From an uncultured candidatus Porisulfidus sp. (GTDB lineage Bacteria > Pseudomonadota > Gammaproteobacteria > Poriferisulfidales > Poriferisulfidaceae), in the NCBI GenBank assembly GCA_965242985.1, contig OZ251520.1, positions 1,794,235 through 1,858,234 of the forward strand: DNA of 64,000 bases, written 5' to 3'. The position numbers were made by a program, and so were the translations under genes. The notes beneath the pieces are model-generated. The model did no database searches and was not told the DNA's origin. It was given only the letters and a program-made list of their open reading frames with translations. Shown here in pieces: positions 1-55,629 of this stretch; position 1 is the stretch's first letter; every line of letters begins with the position of its first letter.

Positions 1-234
1 GCCCGGCACCTCGCCGACGATGCTGTGCACGTCGGCGTGCTCGAACTGCTCGAGCTGCTCGGGGCCGAGGAAGTGGGCGGAGCCCGCGGTCTCCAGCGCG
101 TTCTTCTGGCTGCCGACGATGATCACGTCGGCGATCTCGGCCGGCGGCTCTTCCCGGGCCGGCGCCGGCGCGGCGGCCAGCAGGCCGGCGGCGCACAGGC
201 CCGCGCCCGCGAGTTTCTTCCCTGACTGTCTCAT
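1..234 (-). CDS. TonB-dependent outer-membrane receptor, N-terminal part (runs off the window start)
   Basis: Not in the ORF track. My translation from ATG at 234: MRQSGKKLAGAGLCAAGLLAAAPAPAREEPPAEIADVIIVGSQKNALETAGSAHFLGPEQLEQFEHADVHSIVGEVPG, i.e. signal peptide, TonB-box-like DVIIVG and plug-domain start. GGAGG RBS upstream. Confidence 0.75.
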   Translation of the reverse strand, partial: MRQSGKKLAGAGLCAAGLLAAAPAPAREEPPAEIADVIIVGSQKNALETAGSAHFLGPEQLEQFEHADVHSIVGEVPG

Positions 235-7979: not shown

Positions 7980-8915
7980 ATGGCGATGACGAACTTCGAG
8001 CAGCTTATGGCGCCGATACTGAACGCGTTTGGCAGAAACGAAACGCTTTCCACTTCCGAAATCCGCGCGCGCATCGCCAAAACAGAAAAACTCTCGGACG
8101 AGCAGCTGCGGGAGAGGTACGCCACCAGAGTGCCGGTCTTCCTGAACCAAGCCGGCTGGGCGATCCATTGCCTGCACAGGGCCGGGCTGCTCGCGCAAGT
8201 GCGGCGCGGCGTTTACCAACTTTCCGACAACGGCAAGAAACTGCGGGCCGAGAAACAAGAGGCGATCAACACCGCTTTCCTGAAGACGCGCTATCCGGAA
8301 TACAAAAAGTGGCGCCAGAGCACCGAACCTGAGACCCGCGCCCGCACCGGGCCGGAAACGACCGATGCCGAGGAGGCTGCTGATTCGCTGACGCCCATGG
8401 ACCGGCTGGAAGAGGCGCACGCGGAAATCCGGCGCCTGCTGGAGAGCGAGCTGCACCGGCTGATGCAGGAAGAAATCACGCCGGCGATGTTTGAACGCAT
8501 CGCGGTGGACCTCTTGAAAGCCATGGGCTACGGGAAAGGCCGCGCGGATTCGGCCGAAGTAACCGGCGGCCCCAATGACGGCGGCATCGACGGGGTCATC
8601 AAGGAAGACGCGCTCGGCCTGAGCAAGATCTACATTCAGGCGAAAAAGTACGCGGCCCCGTACTCCGTGAGCAGCGGCAAGCTGCGGGAATTCGCCGAAG
8701 CGCTCCGCGTGAAGCGGGCGACGAAAGGCGTGTTCGTGACCACCTCAAAATTCGCTCCCAGCGCGAAAAAAGAATACGCCGAGCGGGACGACATCGTCCT
8801 GATCGACGGCGAGGAACTTGTGCGCCTCATGATCCAGTACGAAGTGGGAGTCGCACGCCGGGACTTCGCCATTAAGAAAATCGATGAGAATTATTTCGCC
8901 GAAGAGGGACTGTAA
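7980..8915 (+). CDS. mrr: Mrr-family type IV restriction endonuclease
   Basis: N-terminal winged helix (NQAGWAIHCLHRAGLL...RRGVYQLS), catalytic FERIAVDLLKAMGY, DGGIDG, YIQAKKY, KGVFVTTSKF. Confidence 0.9.
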   Translation: MAMTNFEQLMAPILNAFGRNETLSTSEIRARIAKTEKLSDEQLRERYATRVPVFLNQAGWAIHCLHRAGLLAQVRRGVYQLSDNGKKLRAEKQEAINTAFLKTRYPEYKKWRQSTEPETRARTGPETTDAEEAADSLTPMDRLEEAHAEIRRLLESELHRLMQEEITPAMFERIAVDLLKAMGYGKGRADSAEVTGGPNDGGIDGVIKEDALGLSKIYIQAKKYAAPYSVSSGKLREFAEALRVKRATKGVFVTTSKFAPSAKKEYAERDDIVLIDGEELVRLMIQYEVGVARRDFAIKKIDENYFAEEGL

Positions 8916-48620: not shown

Positions 48621-49987
48621 TCTGGCCGGCGCTGCTGTTCGGGCTGGCCATCCTCGCGCTGATGGCCGGCTACCCGGTGGCGTTCACCCTGGCCGGGGTG
48701 TCGCTGGCGGTGGCCGGCGCCGCGCACCTGGCCGGCGCCTTCGACTTCGGCCTGCTGTTCAGCCTGCCGTCGCGCACCTTCGGCATCATGGTCAACGACA
48801 TCCTGATCGCGGTGCCGCTGTTCGTGTTCATGGGCGTGATGCTGCAGCGCTCGCACGTGGCCGAGGACCTGCTGTCGGCGATGGACCACCTGTGCGGCCC
48901 GCTGCCGGGCGGCCTCGGCCTGTCGGTGCTCTTGGTCGGCGCGCTCTTGGCGGCCAGCACCGGCATCGTCGGCGCCACCGTGGTGACCCTGGGCCTGCTG
49001 GCGCTGCCCGGCATGCTGCGGCGCGGCTACGACCCGGCGGTCGCCTGCGGCACCATCTGCGCCTCCGGCACCCTGGGGCAGATCGTGCCGCCGTCGATCG
49101 TGCTGGTGCTGCTCGGCGACGTGATGTCGACCGCCTACCAGAAGGCGCAGCTCGACCAGGGGCTGTTCGCGCTGCAGACGGTGTCGGTGGCGGACCTGTT
49201 CGTCGGCGCCATCCTGCCGAGCCTGGCGCTGGTCGGCATGTACCTGGTGTACCTGATGTACCGCGCCTGGCGCCACCCCGACCTGCTGCCGCCGACGCCG
49301 CCGCGCGAGAAGCACGCCTGGACCGTGGCCGAGGCGACGCTGATGCTGACGGCGCCGCTGGCGCTGATCGCGGCCGTGCTCGGCAGCATCATGGCGGGGC
49401 TGGCGACGCCGACCGAGGCCGCCTCGCTGGGCGCGGTCGGCAGCGTGCTGCTGGCGCTCCGGCGCGGGCCGATCCCGTGGCGCGAGCTGCGCGCGGTGGC
49501 GCAGCAGACCGCGCACATCTCCAGCATGGTGTTCCTGGTGCTGATCGGCGCCTCGGTGTTCTCGCTGGTGTTCCGCGGCCTCGGCGGCGACGACCTGGTG
49601 CACGCCTGGCTCGGCGGCCTGCCCGGCGGCGTGGTCGGCGCGGTGGCGATGGTGATGCTGCTGATGTTCCTGCTCGGCTTCGTGCTGGACTTCATCGAGA
49701 TCACCTACGTGGTGGTGCCGCTGGTGGGGCCGGTGCTGCTGATGATGGGCCTGGACCCGGTGTGGCTGGGGGTGATGATCGCGATCAACCTGCAGACCTC
49801 GTTCCTGACCCCGCCGTTCGGCTTCTCGCTGTTCTACCTGCGCGGGGTGGCGCCGGCGTCGGTCGACACGCCGCAGATCTACCGCGGCGTGCTGCCGTTC
49901 ATCGGCATGCAGCTGGCGATGCTGCTGCTGCTGGCGCTGTGGCCGGAGCTGGCCACTTGGCTGCCGGCGGTGGTGTTCGGGCGCTGA
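48617..49987 (+). CDS. TRAP transporter large permease (FcbT3/DctM type)
   Basis: AVPLFVFMG, LLAASTGIVGATV, SGTLGQIVPPS, TPTEAA, NLQTSFLTPPFG. Confidence 0.93.
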   Translation: MIWPALLFGLAILALMAGYPVAFTLAGVSLAVAGAAHLAGAFDFGLLFSLPSRTFGIMVNDILIAVPLFVFMGVMLQRSHVAEDLLSAMDHLCGPLPGGLGLSVLLVGALLAASTGIVGATVVTLGLLALPGMLRRGYDPAVACGTICASGTLGQIVPPSIVLVLLGDVMSTAYQKAQLDQGLFALQTVSVADLFVGAILPSLALVGMYLVYLMYRAWRHPDLLPPTPPREKHAWTVAEATLMLTAPLALIAAVLGSIMAGLATPTEAASLGAVGSVLLALRRGPIPWRELRAVAQQTAHISSMVFLVLIGASVFSLVFRGLGGDDLVHAWLGGLPGGVVGAVAMVMLLMFLLGFVLDFIEITYVVVPLVGPVLLMMGLDPVWLGVMIAINLQTSFLTPPFGFSLFYLRGVAPASVDTPQIYRGVLPFIGMQLAMLLLLALWPELATWLPAVVFGR

Positions 49988-50017
49988 GGACTATCTAGGC
50001 GGACGCATCCCGCGCCG

Positions 50018-50260
50018 TCAATCCATGCCCAGCGCCTTGCGCTCCCGGCGCAGGACCTCGGTCGGCGACGGCTCCAGCGCCAGCACCGGCTCAGCGCGGA
50101 GCTCGCGCAGGAATTCCTCCGGACTCGGATGGGACGAAGCCCGCTCCAGCTCCCGCCTGACGTACGCGGACATGGAAATGCCCTCCGCCGCGGCGCGGGC
50201 TTTCAGCCGCCGGTGCAGGGCGGCCGGGACGTTGCGGATCTGAATCGCTTTCGGCTTCAT
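50018..50260 (-). CDS. FitA-like ribbon-helix-helix antitoxin-like protein
   Basis: IQIRNVPAALHRRLKARAAAEGISMSAYV. Confidence 0.75.
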   Translation of the reverse strand: MKPKAIQIRNVPAALHRRLKARAAAEGISMSAYVRRELERASSHPSPEEFLRELRAEPVLALEPSPTEVLRRERKALGMD

Positions 50261-50261
50261 A

Positions 50262-50540
50262 TCATTCGCCACGACGGCCGGCATCCTTTGCGTCCCCGGC
50301 TTGAGGGGAAACGAAAAGGGTGTGGTAGCCCAAGGAAATCGGGCGGCGTCCGATCACTTGGATGGTGAAATCGCCGAGGCCGTAATTGTCGCACCCGACT
50401 TTATAGGCATCGCCGCAATCGTTGTAGATGCCCGCTAGTTCGCCGCGGTGCAGCAAGGCGGTGCGGCCCATGTGTTCAGCCTCTAACTTTTCTCTTGCAG
50501 CTTCATATGCCGCATAGTTTCCCTTGACCGGGTCGTTCAT
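50262..50540 (-). CDS. Small hypothetical protein (resembles DUF5678-type)
   Basis: NYAAYEAAREKL...MGRTALLHRGELAGIY...DAYKVG; GAGGT RBS and TTGACA-18-TACTGT upstream. Confidence 0.6.
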   Translation of the reverse strand: MNDPVKGNYAAYEAAREKLEAEHMGRTALLHRGELAGIYNDCGDAYKVGCDNYGLGDFTIQVIGRRPISLGYHTLFVSPQAGDAKDAGRRGE

Positions 50541-50704
50541 GTTTTCACCTCAGCACCATAGGATCAGCATAACAGTAGCAGTCATCAGCAGATTCTGTCA
50601 ACCGTAAGGACACATATAGCTTCGCAACAATCTAGCCCGCTAGCGCTGTGGCCAGAGCTGGAAATCCGGCTGCTGGAAATAAGGCCCCGGTAGTTGCAAT
50701 CTGG

Positions 50705-53245
50705 TCAGATATCGGCCAAAGCTTGCGGGAATTCTTCTTCCTTGAATACGAGGCGGAAAACACCTTTGGCAATACCATCCTGCACAGTCATGGTGCCGCA
50801 ATTAAAAGCATCTTGCAGCGTCTCCATAACTCGCTGCTTATATCTGGTATCGGGATTCCCCCGCAAGTGTTCCCCCTTAGTCTCGAACACCAGTACGCAA
50901 GATATCCCGTCAGTCGTCCGACCCATGGCCACAAAATCCGGCCATATCCGTTCTTTTTTCCAGCCGCGAAGATAATATCCCCCCTGCCTCACCGCTATTC
51001 GATGCCACCATTGTATGGCTCTTTGTTTGTCCAAATAACAAGCAAAATTGCGTTCCAGATCGGAGTCAAATTGACTCTTGAACACCGGCTCAAACAGACT
51101 AAGCTGCAGGTGTCGAAACTCCTCCCCCAACAAAGGTTCAGCATCTTGAGGCAGATTGACCTCATAACTTTCCCTCACCCCGAAATTACCGCCTCCAGCG
51201 CGCAAATCAACGCGTATTTCACCTCGTTGCAGTTTGTCACGGAATACATCCTCTGATTGCTTTTCCACTTCTTTTTGGATATGTTCCCGAAGTGCAAAAA
51301 CCAAAGAACCGCGCTTGTCGTGTATGGTCTCATCGGTCTCCCCCTGTTTACGCAACTCAGCAATCATGTCTTGAACGATGCGCACTCCCTGCCATGGATT
51401 GGGAACAATGTCCTGTACGCGGGTCACAAACCAAGATATCTTCAAGGTTTTGTCGACATATAAAGCATGGTCGCCGTGAAAAGTCGGCGCGCCAAAGCCT
51501 ACACTAACCATTTGCTGGCGAGCCGCATTGGCTTGCATTGGCTGAAGGTCAAGAGCTTCGATTTCATTCCAGCGTACTTCTGGAAGAATGTGGCGTACAT
51601 AGTCCAATTCCACCCAACTGCCATTTTCTCTGTGCAGTACTTTCGGCAGAAAAAGTTCGCGTCCTTGGTAAGTCGCGCGGCGCTTTATGGTGTAGCGTTT
51701 CATCGCGGGATCCCTCTCTCCGATAACCTTGTTGCCTAGCCCGCTTAAGCCTTCCTGTTCCAAGCCATTCTTGACTTGTTCCACAGCGGTCTGCACATCA
51801 CTGTTCCAACAATGCACATAACACTGGTCTAGCTTAGCCCGCCCGGTTCTGCTAGCGTATGGCTGACGCATCACTCTTCCCACTAGTTGTGTGATGGCCC
51901 GTTGTGCCGTGGTGTTGTCCAGCATTACCAGAAGATAAGCATAGGGACAGTCCCAACCTTCCATCAGTGCGGATTTGGTGATGATCCATCGCACTGGCGA
52001 GTAGCGCGACATCAAGTCCTCATGTCCTAACTCATCCCGCTCCGCAGATTTCACTCGCACTGCATCCGGAGAAACTCCCAAATACTGAATTAGGTGCTCC
52101 CGAACGTCTTCAGCGTGCACGTGCTGGCCATCCTGCTGGCCCCTGCCAGTACGTTCCACCCGCACTACTGCTATCGGACGTATATATCTGCCCTCCTCTT
52201 GGTCGAAAAGTTCGGCCTCTTCGGCCAGCTGCGCAAGTCGCTCATGCGCCTGCGCCAAAGTCGCTTGCCATTCCGTGTTCGGATACGATACCACCTGCAC
52301 CGGCAACTTGATCATCTCTTCTTTCTCCAACTCGGCGCCGCCGACATCCACCAGAAGATTGCTGATGCCGGGATGCGGCGTGGCCGACAACTCAATCACC
52401 AAACTCGGGTCCAGCCTACTTATGGAACGCGCAAATTCTTCTCTTTGGCCCCCTTGCCTCCCATATGCTTTGTGTGCCTCATCCAGCACTACCACCGGCC
52501 GCAACAATTTGAATACATTGAACAAACTCTGTTTGACCGGCCTACTCCGTTGAACTAGCCCATCAGCGACCTGATTAACCGATTCATCCTGCCCAACCGA
52601 ATCATCAGTGACGATCTCCAAGTCAGGATGACAAATCCGAAGCTTTTGATTTCCCGGAAGATCATCACTGTCCGGAAAGAAACTTGGATAGCGTCCGCTA
52701 TCTCGGAACATGCGTAGAAACTCCCGGTCCCGGTATCGATTGGCAGCAGGCAGCATCAGTAGCAATACGCACAAATAGTTTTCAGTTTGAGCAGCAGTAA
52801 ACACATCATCTTTCTCCAGCAGTTTTACTCGCCCACCGCTAGCCCGCTCCAATCTTTGCCGGTAAGGATGCTCTTTATTCCACAACGCTTTACGGGTCTG
52901 CGCGTAAATCGCTTTCGTAGGCACAATCCATAACGTCAGGCCGGTTTGCCGGTTCAGCTGCTCCAGAACTGCTGCCGCCAACAATGTCTTCCCGCCCCCC
53001 GTCGGCACCTTGAAACATACGTGCGGAATTGGACGGCCGGCATCATCAACACGACTAATGTATTCCTCTTGCGAGAGTTTCTTCCATGCTGCTTTCGGGT
53101 AGTTGCGGACATCTTCGGGGATTTCTACATCCGCCATCTCCAACGCCGCGACAGAGATCTCCGACTGCCTTTTTGACTTGGCCAATTCTTGCCACCAGCG
53201 CACGAATGTGTCTAGGGCCGCTGCTTGATATTCCTTGAGTTCCAT
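50705..53245 (-). CDS. res: Type III restriction-modification Res subunit
   Basis: VPTGGGKT (Walker A), VLDEAH, EGWDCP, C-terminal IWPDFV...VFETKG nuclease motif; TAATG overlap with the mod stop. Confidence 0.9.
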   Translation of the reverse strand: MELKEYQAAALDTFVRWWQELAKSKRQSEISVAALEMADVEIPEDVRNYPKAAWKKLSQEEYISRVDDAGRPIPHVCFKVPTGGGKTLLAAAVLEQLNRQTGLTLWIVPTKAIYAQTRKALWNKEHPYRQRLERASGGRVKLLEKDDVFTAAQTENYLCVLLLMLPAANRYRDREFLRMFRDSGRYPSFFPDSDDLPGNQKLRICHPDLEIVTDDSVGQDESVNQVADGLVQRSRPVKQSLFNVFKLLRPVVVLDEAHKAYGRQGGQREEFARSISRLDPSLVIELSATPHPGISNLLVDVGGAELEKEEMIKLPVQVVSYPNTEWQATLAQAHERLAQLAEEAELFDQEEGRYIRPIAVVRVERTGRGQQDGQHVHAEDVREHLIQYLGVSPDAVRVKSAERDELGHEDLMSRYSPVRWIITKSALMEGWDCPYAYLLVMLDNTTAQRAITQLVGRVMRQPYASRTGRAKLDQCYVHCWNSDVQTAVEQVKNGLEQEGLSGLGNKVIGERDPAMKRYTIKRRATYQGRELFLPKVLHRENGSWVELDYVRHILPEVRWNEIEALDLQPMQANAARQQMVSVGFGAPTFHGDHALYVDKTLKISWFVTRVQDIVPNPWQGVRIVQDMIAELRKQGETDETIHDKRGSLVFALREHIQKEVEKQSEDVFRDKLQRGEIRVDLRAGGGNFGVRESYEVNLPQDAEPLLGEEFRHLQLSLFEPVFKSQFDSDLERNFACYLDKQRAIQWWHRIAVRQGGYYLRGWKKERIWPDFVAMGRTTDGISCVLVFETKGEHLRGNPDTRYKQRVMETLQDAFNCGTMTVQDGIAKGVFRLVFKEEEFPQALADI

Positions 53246-54965
53246 TATCGTTGGTATAGCCCATAGGGTAGCTGGCAGAATGTAATCTCCATCTTCGTTA
53301 GTTCTCGCTGGCCGATGTACTTACCCGCAGCAAACACCACCGCCTCGCGTTTACGCGCAGCAATTTCTTTGGCCCGCTTCAAATTGAGCATCGCTTTCTC
53401 ACTGCCGAGCCACTCTAGATTGGGCTCATACAAAAGGTAATAATCGATTTCATCCTGCTGATAGAACGGATCGCCCTCCAGTTTTTCGGTTGTCGAGATG
53501 CCAGTAGCCGTGTGCAGCAGATACGCTGCCAATTCCGAATACGGCGGTAGAGTGCTTCCCGTCAGCATTTCTTCTGGGTCAATCGGCTCACCCAACGTGC
53601 AATAGGTGAAACACCCGCCCAATCCCTCGCGCAGAACTTCATCCCTTGCTTCCGGCACACCGCAAATCACTCGCCGCACTCTCTCCGCCGTAACGCTATC
53701 AGCATAATTTTCGCTTTCCACAAGAATAAACTGACGTTTGCCGTCATCTTCCTTGTTCAGCGCCAATACCGCATGCGCCGTCGTGCCGGAACCGGCAAAA
53801 GAGTCTAATACGATAGCGTCTTTGTCAGTCCCGGTCGCAAAACGCACGACTCGCTTGATAAGGTCTGTACGTTTGGGATTGTCAAATCGAATGCCGACTT
53901 TCTTTTTGTAAGACGCGGATTCGTTTGCTATCAGATCATTCCACAGTGAACCTATTATCCGACGGTCGGACGAGGGCACATAGTGTTCTATCGTGCCATC
54001 GGCTGATTTTCTTAATAGATCCGGCTTCTCAGGCGATTGCTGAAAATACCACTCGTCTATTGCCTGCTGGCTGGGCTCAGGGCCAATCTCTTCCAGCAGT
54101 TTTTCATAATTCCGAATCGCAATCCGGCTTTTTTCTTCTTTCCAGCGCCATTGCCCTTCTTCAGGCAGCTCGCCCATAAGTTCATACCGCATGGTCGGTC
54201 GATCCGTACCCCGCCAATGATTATTCCAACTGGATTCCCTACTTATCTCAATTGTTAAATGATCAAATTTGGATTCCGGATTCTTTGTGTAGCAAACTAT
54301 GTACTCTTGGCCGCTGTTAAGCCGTTCAATAGTTTCAAATTGCGCCTGCACATTCTTCACGCCACGTCGGACAATTATGATATTCCTGAAATTATCTTCG
54401 CCGAAAATCTCATCCATCAGCAACCGCAAACGGTGCTGTTCATGATCGTCAATGGAAACACAAATTACGCCGTCTTCCGCTAACAACTCACGCAACAACT
54501 GCAAGCGTGGCCACATCATGCACAACCACTTGTCGTGGCGCTCCAAATCTTCACCGTCCACTGGCTGGTTCTGTTCCAGCCACGTCTGCATCAGGGGGCT
54601 GTTTACGTTGTCGCTATATACCCATTTCTCGCTACCAGTGTTGTAGGGCGGATCAATATAGATGCACTTGATGCGGGCAGCATAATTGGGTAACAGTGCT
54701 TTCAATGCATGCAGATTGTCTCCATGCACGATATAATTGTCGCTTGTCGCTTGTCGCTTGTCGCTTGTCGCTTGTCGCTTGTCGCTTGTCGCTTGTCGCT
54801 TGTCGCTTGTCGCTTGTCGCTTGTCGCTTGTCGCTTGTCGCTTGTCGCTTGTCGCTTGTCGCTTGTCGCCACCGATTTGCCTGCATCCGGCACTAGCGGC
54901 CGATAAGGAACCGTAAGGTGGTGGGCGTAGATGTGTTGCTTGCCCTTGAAATCAAATTGCGGCAT
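53245..54965 (-). CDS. mod: Type III DNA methyltransferase Mod, frameshifted (phase-OFF) by a 7-bp SSR
   Basis: 5' part MPQFDFKGKQHIYAHHLTVP (ORF 54702..54965) and 3' part HGDNLHALK...IYIDPPYNTG...VLDSFAGSGTT (ORF 53245..54729) are in different frames; the 1721-bp span is not divisible by 3. Confidence 0.9.
54737..54869. repeat. Perfect tandem repeat (TTGTCGC)19 / (GCGACAA)19
   Basis: 133 bp = 19 x 7, counted from 54737 to 54869; lies inside the mod 5' coding region. Confidence 0.97.
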
Positions 54966-55050
54966 GGTGAGGAATATGCTCTCCCTAAATTATTCCAGCG
55001 CACAAACTGTCACGCTCTGGCGTTGAAGAAAGCCCAGTGCGAGAAATCTG

Positions 55051-55629
55051 TCAGTACGGCGACTCCAGCACCATCTTCATGGTGAACACCGCGGTCAGCA
55101 CCAGCACCGAATAGACGGCGCCCACGCCGAAGAAGATCACCCGCTTGTTCCGCATCATGTCGTCGTTGGTGGCCGCATTGACCATGATGAAGGTCGCGGC
55201 CGCCAGGTTGGCGCCGAAGAAGCCGTAGTAGGTGGCGACCTCGCCGAACACCGCCTGCTCGGTGAACACCACGTAGGAGCCCCAGGCGGCGAAGAGCGCG
55301 CCCGCGTAGGTGACGGCGCGCACGACGCCCGCCGAGATGCGGTCGGTGAGCAGGGCGGCCGTGGTCACGACGCCGGCCGCGGCCACCGCCCACCACCAGG
55401 CCAGGTGCGAGGCGTGCGGCGCGAACTCGATGCGCTTGAACATCGACACGGTGACGATGACGTAGAACAGGCCGATCAGCGCCGTGGGGAACCGCAGGAG
55501 CCACGGGTCGCGCTCGCGGTGGCGCTTGAAGAACATCACCATCCACAGCGCCGCCAAGAAATTGAACAGGCAGGCGCCGTAATACAGCACGCTGGCGGCG
55601 AAAGTCGGCTGCGCGAGGAATTCGTTCAT
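55051..55629 (-). CDS. Hypothetical multi-pass membrane protein
   Basis: 192 aa with about six hydrophobic segments; host-like codon usage. Confidence 0.75.
   Translation of the reverse strand: MNEFLAQPTFAASVLYYGACLFNFLAALWMVMFFKRHRERDPWLLRFPTALIGLFYVIVTVSMFKRIEFAPHASHLAWWWAVAAAGVVTTAALLTDRISAGVVRAVTYAGALFAAWGSYVVFTEQAVFGEVATYYGFFGANLAAATFIMVNAATNDDMMRNKRVIFFGVGAVYSVLVLTAVFTMKMVLESPY

What the first reader, a model, noticed from the sequence alone, without database searches (positions are those of the whole stretch)
54737..54869. Heptanucleotide slipped-strand switch holds a type III methyltransferase OFF (candidate phasevarion)
Nineteen perfect GCGACAA units start in frame after codon 32 of mod. 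The downstream ...AAT TAT ATC GTG CAT GGA GAC AAT (NYIVHGDN) is in frame only when n mod 3 = 2. With n=19 translation gives an 87-aa product with (ATSDKRQ)6 and stops at 54702; n=20 gives 575 aa and n=17 gives 568 aa with DPPY and FAGSG intact. SSR-switched mod genes control phasevarions in host-adapted pathogens, mostly through 2-5-nt units (established). A long 7-nt unit in a very GC-rich, apparently non-pathogen gammaproteobacterium is unusual. The mod stop overlaps the res start (TAATG), so restriction would probably switch with methylation. Population-level epigenetic and anti-phage bet-hedging is an inference.
Basis: partly seen in the sequence, partly recalled or inferred. Interest (0 to 1): 0.9.

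Follow-up and report, generated by a model that had tools for sequence, protein, structure and literature searches.

The report
Repeat-switched restriction-modification gene, currently off
Nineteen identical 7-base repeats inside the DNA-methylase gene of a horizontally acquired phage-defence (type III restriction-modification) system put the gene out of frame; this is most likely a slippage-driven random on/off switch, a kind already well documented, including with 7-base repeats.

Summary
Nineteen perfect GCGACAA units (54869..54737, minus strand) follow codon 32 of a type III mod gene. With n=19 translation stops after 87 aa. n=20 gives 575 aa and n=17 gives 568 aa, both full length. Mod and Res otherwise look intact, and mod and res overlap as TAATG. 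The pair lies in a ~50% GC island within a ~75% GC genome.

The tract sits in the variable linker between the family's conserved 32-aa N-terminus and the DNLIIHGDN motif. Seven homologues carry poly-C or poly-G tracts at the same site, six out of frame and one in frame. This Mod clade has therefore evolved frame-switching repeats there repeatedly. The last unit aligns with the family's own (D)DN codons, so the repeat grew in place.

Phase variation itself could not be tested, because the public contigs (k=31) break at the repeat. Depth ratios give 10-21 units. That rules out a much longer tract but cannot separate 19 from 20.

The claim of unusualness fails. Atack et al. [quoted passage not shown] "Phasevarion" is untested, and the intact Res points to switchable defence.

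Verdict: new member of a known kind, modest interest.

The parts
54737..54869 (-). Simple sequence repeat (GCGACAA)x19, perfect. It reads ATSDKRQ in all three forward frames (no stop) and occupies the variable linker of Mod.
   Evidence: sequence, TRF score 266. (position relative to homologues). (no self-structure as single-stranded DNA).
54870..54965 (-). mod 5' segment: ATG plus codons 1-32, MPQFDFKGKQHIYAHHLTVPYRPLVPDAGKSV, the conserved N-terminus of this Mod family.
   Evidence: About 100 of the 120 listed homologues start with MPTL(D/E)FKGKQHIYAHHLTVPYRPL or a close variant.
53245..54738 (-). mod body in the frame NYIVHGDN...: 497 codons plus stop. Beta-class N6-adenine methyltransferase, with DPPY at residue 29 and FAGSG at residue 314 of this segment. 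It is out of frame with the ATG when n=19.
   Evidence: PF01555, 3e-31. (MTase_III 1.4e-128; PDLC03644 aligned 1-495 to 39-540 of 542). (6k0w, 4zcf, 7dsu). (motifs).
54702..54704 (-). Premature stop codon reached in the n=19 frame, ending the 87-aa product.
50705..53245 (-). res: 846-aa type III restriction subunit. Motifs GGGKT (83), DEAH (255), QLVGR (453) and PD...ETK (769-790). Its start overlaps the mod stop (TAATG).
   Evidence: ResIII. (REase_III 1e-193, aligned 1-833 to 1-869 of 883). (motifs, junction).
54966..55050 (-). 85-nt upstream non-coding region of mod. No consensus sigma-70 promoter was found. The right edge of the low-GC island lies at 55050/55051, directly after the stop of the host membrane-protein gene (55051..55629).
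   Evidence: Contigs of runs X2-X4 branch exactly at 55051.
50541..50704 (.). Left edge of the restriction-modification island. It holds a degenerate copy of the dctM 3' end (50639-50676, 79% identical to 49930-49967).
7980..8915 (+). Context only: intact Mrr type IV (methylation-dependent) restriction enzyme in the same window.
   Evidence: Mrr_N 4.6e-18, Mrr_cat 2.5e-32.

Best explanation
This is a horizontally acquired type III restriction-modification operon (mod then res). Its methyltransferase gene carries a home-grown heptanucleotide repeat in a length-tolerant linker after codon 32. Slipped-strand mispairing during replication adds or removes 7-nt units. Only tracts with n mod 3 = 2 join the conserved N-terminus to the catalytic body. 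In the assembled consensus (n=19) translation stops after 87 aa, so no Mod is made.

Type III Res needs Mod to recognise DNA (established for EcoP15I/EcoP1I). Restriction is therefore off as well, and loss of translational coupling across 1.45 kb probably lowers res expression further (inferred). Gaining one unit or losing two restores a 575- or 568-aa Mod with an (ATSDKRQ)n linker. The population would then be a mix of restriction-modification ON and OFF cells.

Shown here: the anatomy, the frame arithmetic, the intact domains, and recurrent repeats at the same site in relatives. Inferred: that the tract length really varies, that the ON protein is active, and what the switching is for. Possible uses are defence versus cost, DNA uptake or autoimmunity bet-hedging, and possibly gene regulation.
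For: Frame arithmetic and tract purity.

Both halves belong to one conserved gene. The 32-aa N-terminus matches the family consensus, and the tract replaces a linker that varies from about 7 to 25 aa among 120 homologues.

Seven homologues have homopolymer tracts at the same linker: L240 C13, L241 C17, L242 G12, L243 C18, L245 G9 and L246 C11 are out of frame, and L247 G9 is in frame.

The last repeat unit aligns with the family's own (D)DN codons, GA-CGACAA-C.

Mod and Res are otherwise full length with all catalytic motifs, which would not be expected of an old pseudogene.

The tract is perfect, with no decayed units.

Published precedent: repeat-switched type III mod genes with 1-9-nt units, including a variable heptanucleotide tract in an E. 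coli mod gene and examples in environmental species (PMC5909438).

A ~95% identical mod-res allele in independent sponge metagenomes (X5, X6) shows no pure-repeat 31-mers, so the expansion is recent and allele-specific.
Against: No direct evidence of length variation within or between populations. All public runs are held only as k=31 contigs that break at the repeat. Depth ratios (10-21 units) are too noisy to separate 19 from 20.

No ON allele of this particular gene was found. The database searches for Mod proteins with ATSDKRQ repeats returned none.

No recognisable sigma-70 promoter lies upstream.

Activity of an ON protein with a 46-aa repeat linker is assumed, not shown.

The count of 19 coincides with a k=127 assembly floor.
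Confidence: 0.72

Rival explanations
1. The unit count is an assembly product. The true tract is some other length, possibly in frame, so "held OFF" is not a property of the organism. This does not contradict a repeat switch; it only questions the stated state.
For: 133 nt is exactly the shortest multiple of 7 that is at least 127. It is therefore the length to which a k=127 de Bruijn assembler collapses any tract of 19 or more units. Atack et al. found that deposited short-read assemblies always under-report such tracts. Run X1, the only run holding the exact upstream junction, covers it at a depth of only about 3.
Against: Earlier scan notes place other windows of this genome more than 1.6 Mb away on the same piece and report a perfect 271-bp tandem duplication (unchecked). 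This suggests a long-read assembly, which has no such floor. k-mer depth ratios in five runs give 10-21 units, so the tract is not collapsed from a much longer one.
Confidence: 0.15
2. It is a decaying, functionally dead restriction-modification system. The repeat expansion is simply the inactivating lesion in a recently acquired island, and any length changes have no adaptive role.
For: The consensus allele is OFF. No ON allele of this gene was found anywhere. Six of seven repeat-bearing relatives are also out of frame. Strains differ at this hotspot (a branch at 55051 in X2-X4), as expected for dispensable cargo.
Against: There is no other lesion in about 4 kb of mod plus res, and all motifs are intact. 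The tract is perfect, whereas old dead tracts accumulate interruptions. Independent repeats at one permissive site in several relatives are hard to explain without selection for switching. With two of three frames non-productive, an excess of OFF alleles is also what a working switch would show.
Confidence: 0.12
3. It is a dedicated phasevarion. The main role of switching is genome-wide epigenetic control of a regulon, as for modA, modB and modD of Haemophilus and Neisseria, and defence is secondary.
For: In every phase-variable type III mod studied experimentally, switching changes the expression of many genes (PMC5909438). According to earlier notes, the same genome carries other repeat-based switches on surface-protein genes (unchecked). 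That fits a host-associated lifestyle built on contingency loci, here in sponge metagenomes.
Against: Nothing here bears on gene regulation. Res is intact and translationally coupled to mod, whereas phasevarion systems often carry an inactive res (PMC1976455, title and abstract). The island is a recent foreign acquisition at 50% GC against 75%, so there has been little time for a regulon to adapt to its motif.
Confidence: 0.2
4. OFF is enforced by a conflict with the resident Mrr. Methylation by the incoming type III Mod would trigger the methylation-dependent endonuclease Mrr (7980-8915), so only OFF cells survive, and the repeat lets the island persist silently.
For: An intact Mrr is present in the window. 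Antagonism between E. coli Mrr and a type III Mod (StyLTI) is published (PMC3152355). An earlier scan note proposed the same idea (e1-5221250).
Against: The specificity of this Mrr and the target of this Mod are unknown.
Confidence: 0.1

Closest known systems
M.Eco131I, the phase-variable type III mod of Shiga-toxigenic E. coli with CAGCGAC[n] (Atack et al. 2018, PMC5909438)
   Same: A type III mod gene with a long heptanucleotide repeat near the 5' end of the reading frame. The published unit, rotated, is GCGACCA, one base from GCGACAA. Frame-dependent ON/OFF.
   Different: There, tract-length variation was shown by fragment analysis and the methylation motif was determined; here neither could be done. 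The tract here lies after 32 conserved codons, inside the family's own linker. Whether the two Mods belong to the same clade was not tested.
modA/modB/modD (Haemophilus, Neisseria) and modH (H. pylori) phasevarions
   Same: Repeats within the mod reading frame switch the methyltransferase on and off by slipped-strand mispairing.
   Different: Those use 1-5-nt units in small-genome, host-adapted pathogens, have a demonstrated regulon, and often have an inactive res. Here the unit is 7 nt, the organism is an uncultured high-GC bacterium from sponge metagenomes, res is intact, and no regulon is known.
Homopolymer-bearing members of the same Mod clade (loci L240-L243, L245-L247 from metagenome assemblies)
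   Same: 57-65% identical Mod proteins with the same N-terminus, linker and DNLIIHGDN architecture, mod-res context, and a frame-shifting repeat at the same linker position.
   Different: They use C11-C18 or G9-G12 runs instead of a heptamer. Some have extra genes inserted between mod and res.
EcoP15I / EcoP1I, the type III restriction-modification paradigm (structure 4zcf)
   Same: A Mod with DPPY, a recognition domain, then FxGxG, plus a Res with SF2 helicase motifs and a C-terminal PD-(D/E)xK nuclease. Mod is needed for both methylation and restriction.
   Different: No repeat and not phase-variable. The EcoP15I Mod N-terminal region is longer (about 90 residues before the core). The Res here has no sequence-level match to any solved structure.

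Membership tests
Type III restriction-modification system | Mod subunit: beta-class N6-adenine methyltransferase, with DPPY motif IV before the recognition domain and FxGxG motif I | tested here: met
   PF01555 3e-31. PADLOC MTase_III 1.4e-128. Matches to type III Mods 6k0w, 4zcf and 7dsu. DPPY at 29 and FAGSG at 314.
Type III restriction-modification system | Res subunit: SF2 helicase-like ATPase plus a C-terminal PD-(D/E)xK nuclease | tested here: met
   ResIII and DEAD. REase_III 1e-193 over the full length. GGGKT, DEAH, QLVGR and PD...ETK.
Type III restriction-modification system | mod immediately upstream of res in one operon | tested here: met
   TAATG overlap at 53245-53247.
Type III restriction-modification system | Asymmetric target methylated on one strand; ATP-dependent cleavage needing two inversely oriented sites | not testable with these tools
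   Needs a methylome and biochemistry.
Repeat-driven contingency (phase-variable) gene | Perfect tandem repeat inside the reading frame, with a unit length not divisible by 3 and at least 3 units (criterion of Atack et al. 2018) | tested here: met
   19 x 7 nt, 100% perfect. Criterion quoted.
Repeat-driven contingency (phase-variable) gene | The frame of the functional product depends on unit number, and the rest of the gene is intact | tested here: met
   Only n mod 3 = 2 gives 561-582 aa. Domains are intact.
Repeat-driven contingency (phase-variable) gene | Tract length varies within a population or between close strains | tested here: inconclusive
   Contigs break at the repeat. Depth ratios give 10-21 units across five runs, within noise. 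The nearest allele (~95% identical, X5/X6) has no pure-repeat 31-mers. No raw reads are served.
Repeat-driven contingency (phase-variable) gene | ON/OFF expression of the protein follows tract length | not testable with these tools
   Needs cloning or proteomics of defined alleles.
Phasevarion | Phase-variable DNA methyltransferase whose switching changes the expression of a set of genes | not testable with these tools
   No methylome or transcriptome of ON and OFF cells exists. The claim rests only on analogy (PMC5909438).

The most novel reading that the evidence does not exclude
One permissive linker in a Mod clade that is abundant in sponge-symbiont metagenomes has independently acquired at least three kinds of frame-shifting repeat: poly-C, poly-G and a home-grown heptamer. 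Stochastic ON/OFF switching of whole type III restriction-modification systems would then be a common, convergently evolved strategy of uncultured, large-genome symbionts in phage-rich sponge microbiomes, not a speciality of small-genome pathogens. This bacterium, which may also carry poly-G switches on adhesin genes, would be a heavy user of contingency loci.
Probability: 0.3. Interest if true: 0.45.

Novelty: new member of a known kind. Interest (0 to 1): 0.3.

Why it matters
If the tract does slip, this uncultured, very GC-rich, apparently sponge-associated bacterium randomly splits its population into cells with and without an active restriction barrier and a genome-wide m6A mark. That would affect phage resistance, DNA uptake and possibly gene expression in a dense host-associated community.

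The mechanism itself is textbook, and its spread beyond pathogens was already reported in 2018. The value here is mainly as one more documented case. A second point is the observation that this particular Mod clade has repeatedly evolved repeats at one linker.

The case also warns that the exact unit count, and hence the ON/OFF call, in an assembly should not be trusted without reads that span the tract.

Tried and rejected
1. Counting units in public reads. Read laying refuses the full tract. All runs are k=31 contigs that end 30 nt into the repeat. No raw-read or long-read run was offered.

2. Missing 54870-55050 in runs X2-X4. I first took this as a different 5' end of mod. It is more likely a short unitig between the repeat cycle and a strain branch at 55051 that contig cleaning removed. 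The alternative flank seen in X4 (CCTCTCAAAATAGATTCGTGCCATTCCTTA) is not in the window.

3. Other assemblies of the same allele. The exact Res protein is not on record. The best Mod homologue is only 67% identical.

4. I spent the single genome contigs and metagenome-contig scans on the repeat pattern. More than 239 loci hold (GCGACAA) in at least 4 copies, but none encodes a Mod or Res homologue.

5. Database searches for Mod proteins with ATSDKRQ repeats. The first query was cut too short by my own error and could reach only small proteins. The second, full-length query found no Mod.

6. Plasmid collection: no Mod above 42% identity, so no vector was identified.

7. Hairpin-driven instability is rejected. 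Both strands of the tract fold worse than shuffles.

8. Consensus promoter scan upstream of mod: nothing found.

The rest of the genome, other mod genes, other heptamer tracts and close relatives could therefore not be examined, and the taxonomy (gammaproteobacterium) was not verified by me.

Full report
**What is there**

On the minus strand, window 54869..54737 holds exactly nineteen perfect GCGACAA units (133 nt). TRF gives period 7, 19.0 copies, 100% matches and score 266, and it is the only such tract in the 64-kb window. The tract begins 96 nt (32 codons) after an ATG at 54965.

I re-translated the gene with n=14..24. Only n mod 3 = 2 joins the start to a long frame: n=17 gives 568 aa and n=20 gives 575 aa. 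With n=19 the product is 87 aa and ends at a stop at 54704..54702.

**What the genes are**

The downstream frame (53245..54738) is a type III Mod.
- Pfam N6_N4_Mtase, 3e-31.
- PADLOC MTase_III, 1.4e-128. A second profile aligns residues 1-495 to positions 39-540 of 542, so only the N-terminal part is missing from this frame.
- It matches the solved type III Mods 6k0w, 4zcf (EcoP15I) and 7dsu from about residue 34 onward.
- DPPY precedes FAGSG, the beta-class order.

The next gene (50705..53245) is a full-length type III Res.
- REase_III 1e-193, aligned 1-833 to 1-869 of 883.
- It has GGGKT, DEAH, QLVGR and a C-terminal PD...ETK nuclease motif.
- Its ATG overlaps the mod stop as TAATG.

The pair lies in a 46-57% GC island (about 50,540-55,050) within 65-80% GC surroundings, so it was acquired horizontally.

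**Where the repeat sits**

Mod homologues are at most 67% identical and mostly about 547 aa long. Their N-termini show the conserved start MPTL(D/E)FKGKQHIYAHHLTVPYRPL..., then a linker of variable length and composition (about 7-25 aa), then DNLIIHGDN.

The 32 codons before the tract encode that conserved start (MPQFDFKGKQHIYAHHLTVPYRPLVPDAGKSV). The sequence after the tract encodes NYIVHGDN. The two out-of-frame pieces are therefore halves of one gene, and the repeat occupies the length-tolerant linker.

The last unit aligns with the family's own (D)DN codons: GA-CGACAA-C in the homologues against G-CGACAA-T here. The repeat therefore most likely grew in place from native sequence and was not imported as a cassette.

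Seven and three share no factor, so the tract reads as the same hydrophilic heptapeptide (ATSDKRQ) in every forward frame, without stops. Neither strand has self-structure (z = +3.7 and +6.2 against shuffles). Plain slipped-strand mispairing is the expected mutational mode.

**Support from relatives**

Several homologues in the list looked N-terminally truncated. I fetched their DNA.
- Six have a homopolymer at the same linker with the conserved N-terminus in one frame and the body in another: L240 C13, L241 C17, L242 G12, and L243 C18, L245 G9, L246 C11.
- One full-length homologue, L247, carries G9 in frame.
- One, L244, is a plain 5' truncation. One, L248, has no repeat.

This Mod clade has therefore repeatedly evolved frame-shifting repeats at one site, and both ON and OFF states exist in nature. 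This is the strongest indirect evidence that the heptamer tract is a switch and not an accident.

**What could not be shown**

No tool could count units in individual molecules.
- Read laying refuses the tract.
- All listed runs are stored as k=31 contigs that stop 30 nt into the repeat.
- No raw-read run was offered.

The depth of the pure-repeat unitig relative to unique flanks gives n of about 14-19 (X1), 14-19 (X2), 14-21 (X3), 11-19 (X4) and about 10 (X9, very low depth). This excludes a tract much longer than about 21 units. It cannot separate 19 (OFF) from 20 (ON), nor reveal a mixture.

One warning stands. 133 nt is exactly the length to which a k=127 de Bruijn assembler collapses any 7-nt tract of 19 or more units. 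Atack et al. observed that deposited assemblies always under-report such tracts. Earlier scan notes suggest a long-read assembly: one piece longer than 1.6 Mb and a perfect 271-bp tandem duplication (unchecked). That would remove this concern. I put the chance that the count is wrong at about 15%.

**Population context**

The exact island is present in four runs of one study (X1-X4) and at low depth in X9.

Two sponge metagenomes of another study (X5, X6) hold a ~95% identical mod-res allele but no pure-repeat 31-mers at all. The expansion is therefore allele-specific and recent.

In X2-X4 the contigs branch exactly at 55051, and X4 has different AT-richer DNA there. Strains therefore differ in what occupies this hotspot.

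**Mechanism**

Unit gain or loss during replication toggles the frame. In OFF cells no Mod is made. Type III Res depends on Mod for target recognition (established for EcoP15I/EcoP1I), so restriction is off too. Premature termination 1.45 kb upstream of res probably lowers its expression further (inferred).

ON cells would carry a 46- to 53-aa ATSDKRQ-repeat linker. Its compatibility with activity is assumed from the natural length variation of this linker.

Because Res looks fully functional, the parsimonious role is stochastic switching of a defence system. That trades phage protection against cost, autoimmunity or DNA uptake. An added regulatory (phasevarion) role is possible but untested.

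A conflict with the intact Mrr at 7980-8915 (antagonism published in PMC3152355) is a further, speculative reason for OFF alleles to dominate.

**Comparison with what is known**

Atack et al. 2018 (PMC5909438) searched 3805 type III mod genes.
- They found repeats with units of 1-9 nt in 662 of them (17.4%), including environmental species.
- They estimated at least 25 independent origins.
- In an E. coli mod gene (M.Eco131I) they described a CAGCGAC[26] tract whose length varies within cultures. Rotated, that unit is GCGACCA, one base from GCGACAA.

Earlier notes of this scan list at least 22 further heptanucleotide-repeat methyltransferase findings (unchecked).

A 7-nt switch in a mod gene of a non-pathogen is thus not new in kind. 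What is specific here is the host (an uncultured, very GC-rich bacterium from sponge metagenomes), the home-grown origin of the unit, and the recurrent evolution of repeats at one linker of this clade.

**Side observation**

None of them encodes a homologue of this Mod or Res. Many are intergenic. A subset starts right after a consensus -10 box, 140-180 nt upstream of genes for secreted or surface proteins. I did not calibrate this against other heptamers, so I draw no conclusion from it.

I could not examine the rest of the genome, other mod genes or close relatives, and I did not verify the taxonomy.

**Verdict**

- Observation: confirmed.
- Interpretation: partly supported. A repeat switch on a type III restriction-modification system is very likely. 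"Unusual" and "phasevarion" are not supported.
- Novelty: new member of a known kind.
- Interest: about 0.3.

Noticed in passing
loci L001-L239 (genome contigs and metagenome-contig hits): The exact heptamer tract (GCGACAA), in 4-18 copies, occurs in more than 239 loci from very diverse phyla, including Streptomyces, Xanthomonas hortorum, Burkholderia, Shewanella, Treponema, Synergistales, Omnitrophota, CPR bacteria and Woesearchaeota. Related heptamers (GCAACAA, GCGGCAA, GTGACAA, GCGACAG) are often adjacent. None of the loci is near a homologue of this Mod or Res. Two Burkholderia loci with the same flanks have 9 and 17 units (L040, L087).
   Followed up: partly
L048, L062, L020, L039, L140, L234, L202, L150, L031: In a subset of those loci the tract starts right after a consensus promoter, for example TTGACC-17-TATAAT in L048 and TTGACA-17-TATAAT in L062. 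It lies 140-180 nt upstream of genes for signal-peptide, lipoprotein or large surface proteins. The heptamer run would then form the 5' end of the transcript. The function is unknown.
   Followed up: partly
L240:2973, L241:2969, L242:3003, L243:1555, L245:1517, L246:1518, L247:717: Homologous type III mod genes from other metagenome assemblies carry C11-C18 or G9-G12 runs in the same N-terminal linker. Six are out of frame and one (L247, G9) is in frame. Gene callers annotated the OFF alleles as N-terminally truncated methylases.
   Followed up: yes
L240:4540-6528; L241:4663-7010; L246:3153-4259: In some homologous loci extra genes sit between mod and res: a 662-aa TPR protein (L240), a DDE transposase plus a Lipase_3/phospholipase-like gene (L241), and the same Lipase_3-like gene alone (L246). 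This may be an accessory effector of these type III systems.
   Followed up: no
window 49930-50676: A two-gene toxin-antitoxin-like cassette lies at 50018-50540 on the minus strand. One gene has a FitA-like ribbon-helix-helix antitoxin domain (9.5e-12); the 92-aa partner has no family hit. The cassette is bracketed by the dctM 3' end (49930-49967) and a 79% identical degenerate copy of it (50639-50676). It looks like a small insertion into the end of dctM that carried a replacement 3' end.
   Followed up: partly
window 55050/55051: Contigs of runs X2-X4 branch exactly at the stop codon of the membrane-protein gene, and X4 carries unrelated AT-richer DNA to its left. The spot between dctM and this gene therefore appears to be a strain-variable island hotspot.
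   Followed up: partly
window 52800-54669 versus runs X5, X6: Sponge metagenomes of an independent study contain a mod-res allele about 95% identical (80 differences in 1730 nt) but no pure GCGACAA 31-mers. The nearest known allele therefore seems to lack the expanded tract.
   Followed up: partly
window 54886-54967 versus runs X1-X4: Many other contigs in the same metagenomes match the conserved mod N-terminal coding region at about 80-90% identity and at high depth. Two homologues are annotated as Candidatus Poribacteria (P0043, P0055). This Mod family seems common among co-resident sponge symbionts and is a plausible source of the island.
   Followed up: no
window 7980-8915 (+): An intact Mrr (Mrr_N plus Mrr_cat) type IV restriction enzyme lies in the same window as the switched-off type III mod.
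   Followed up: partly
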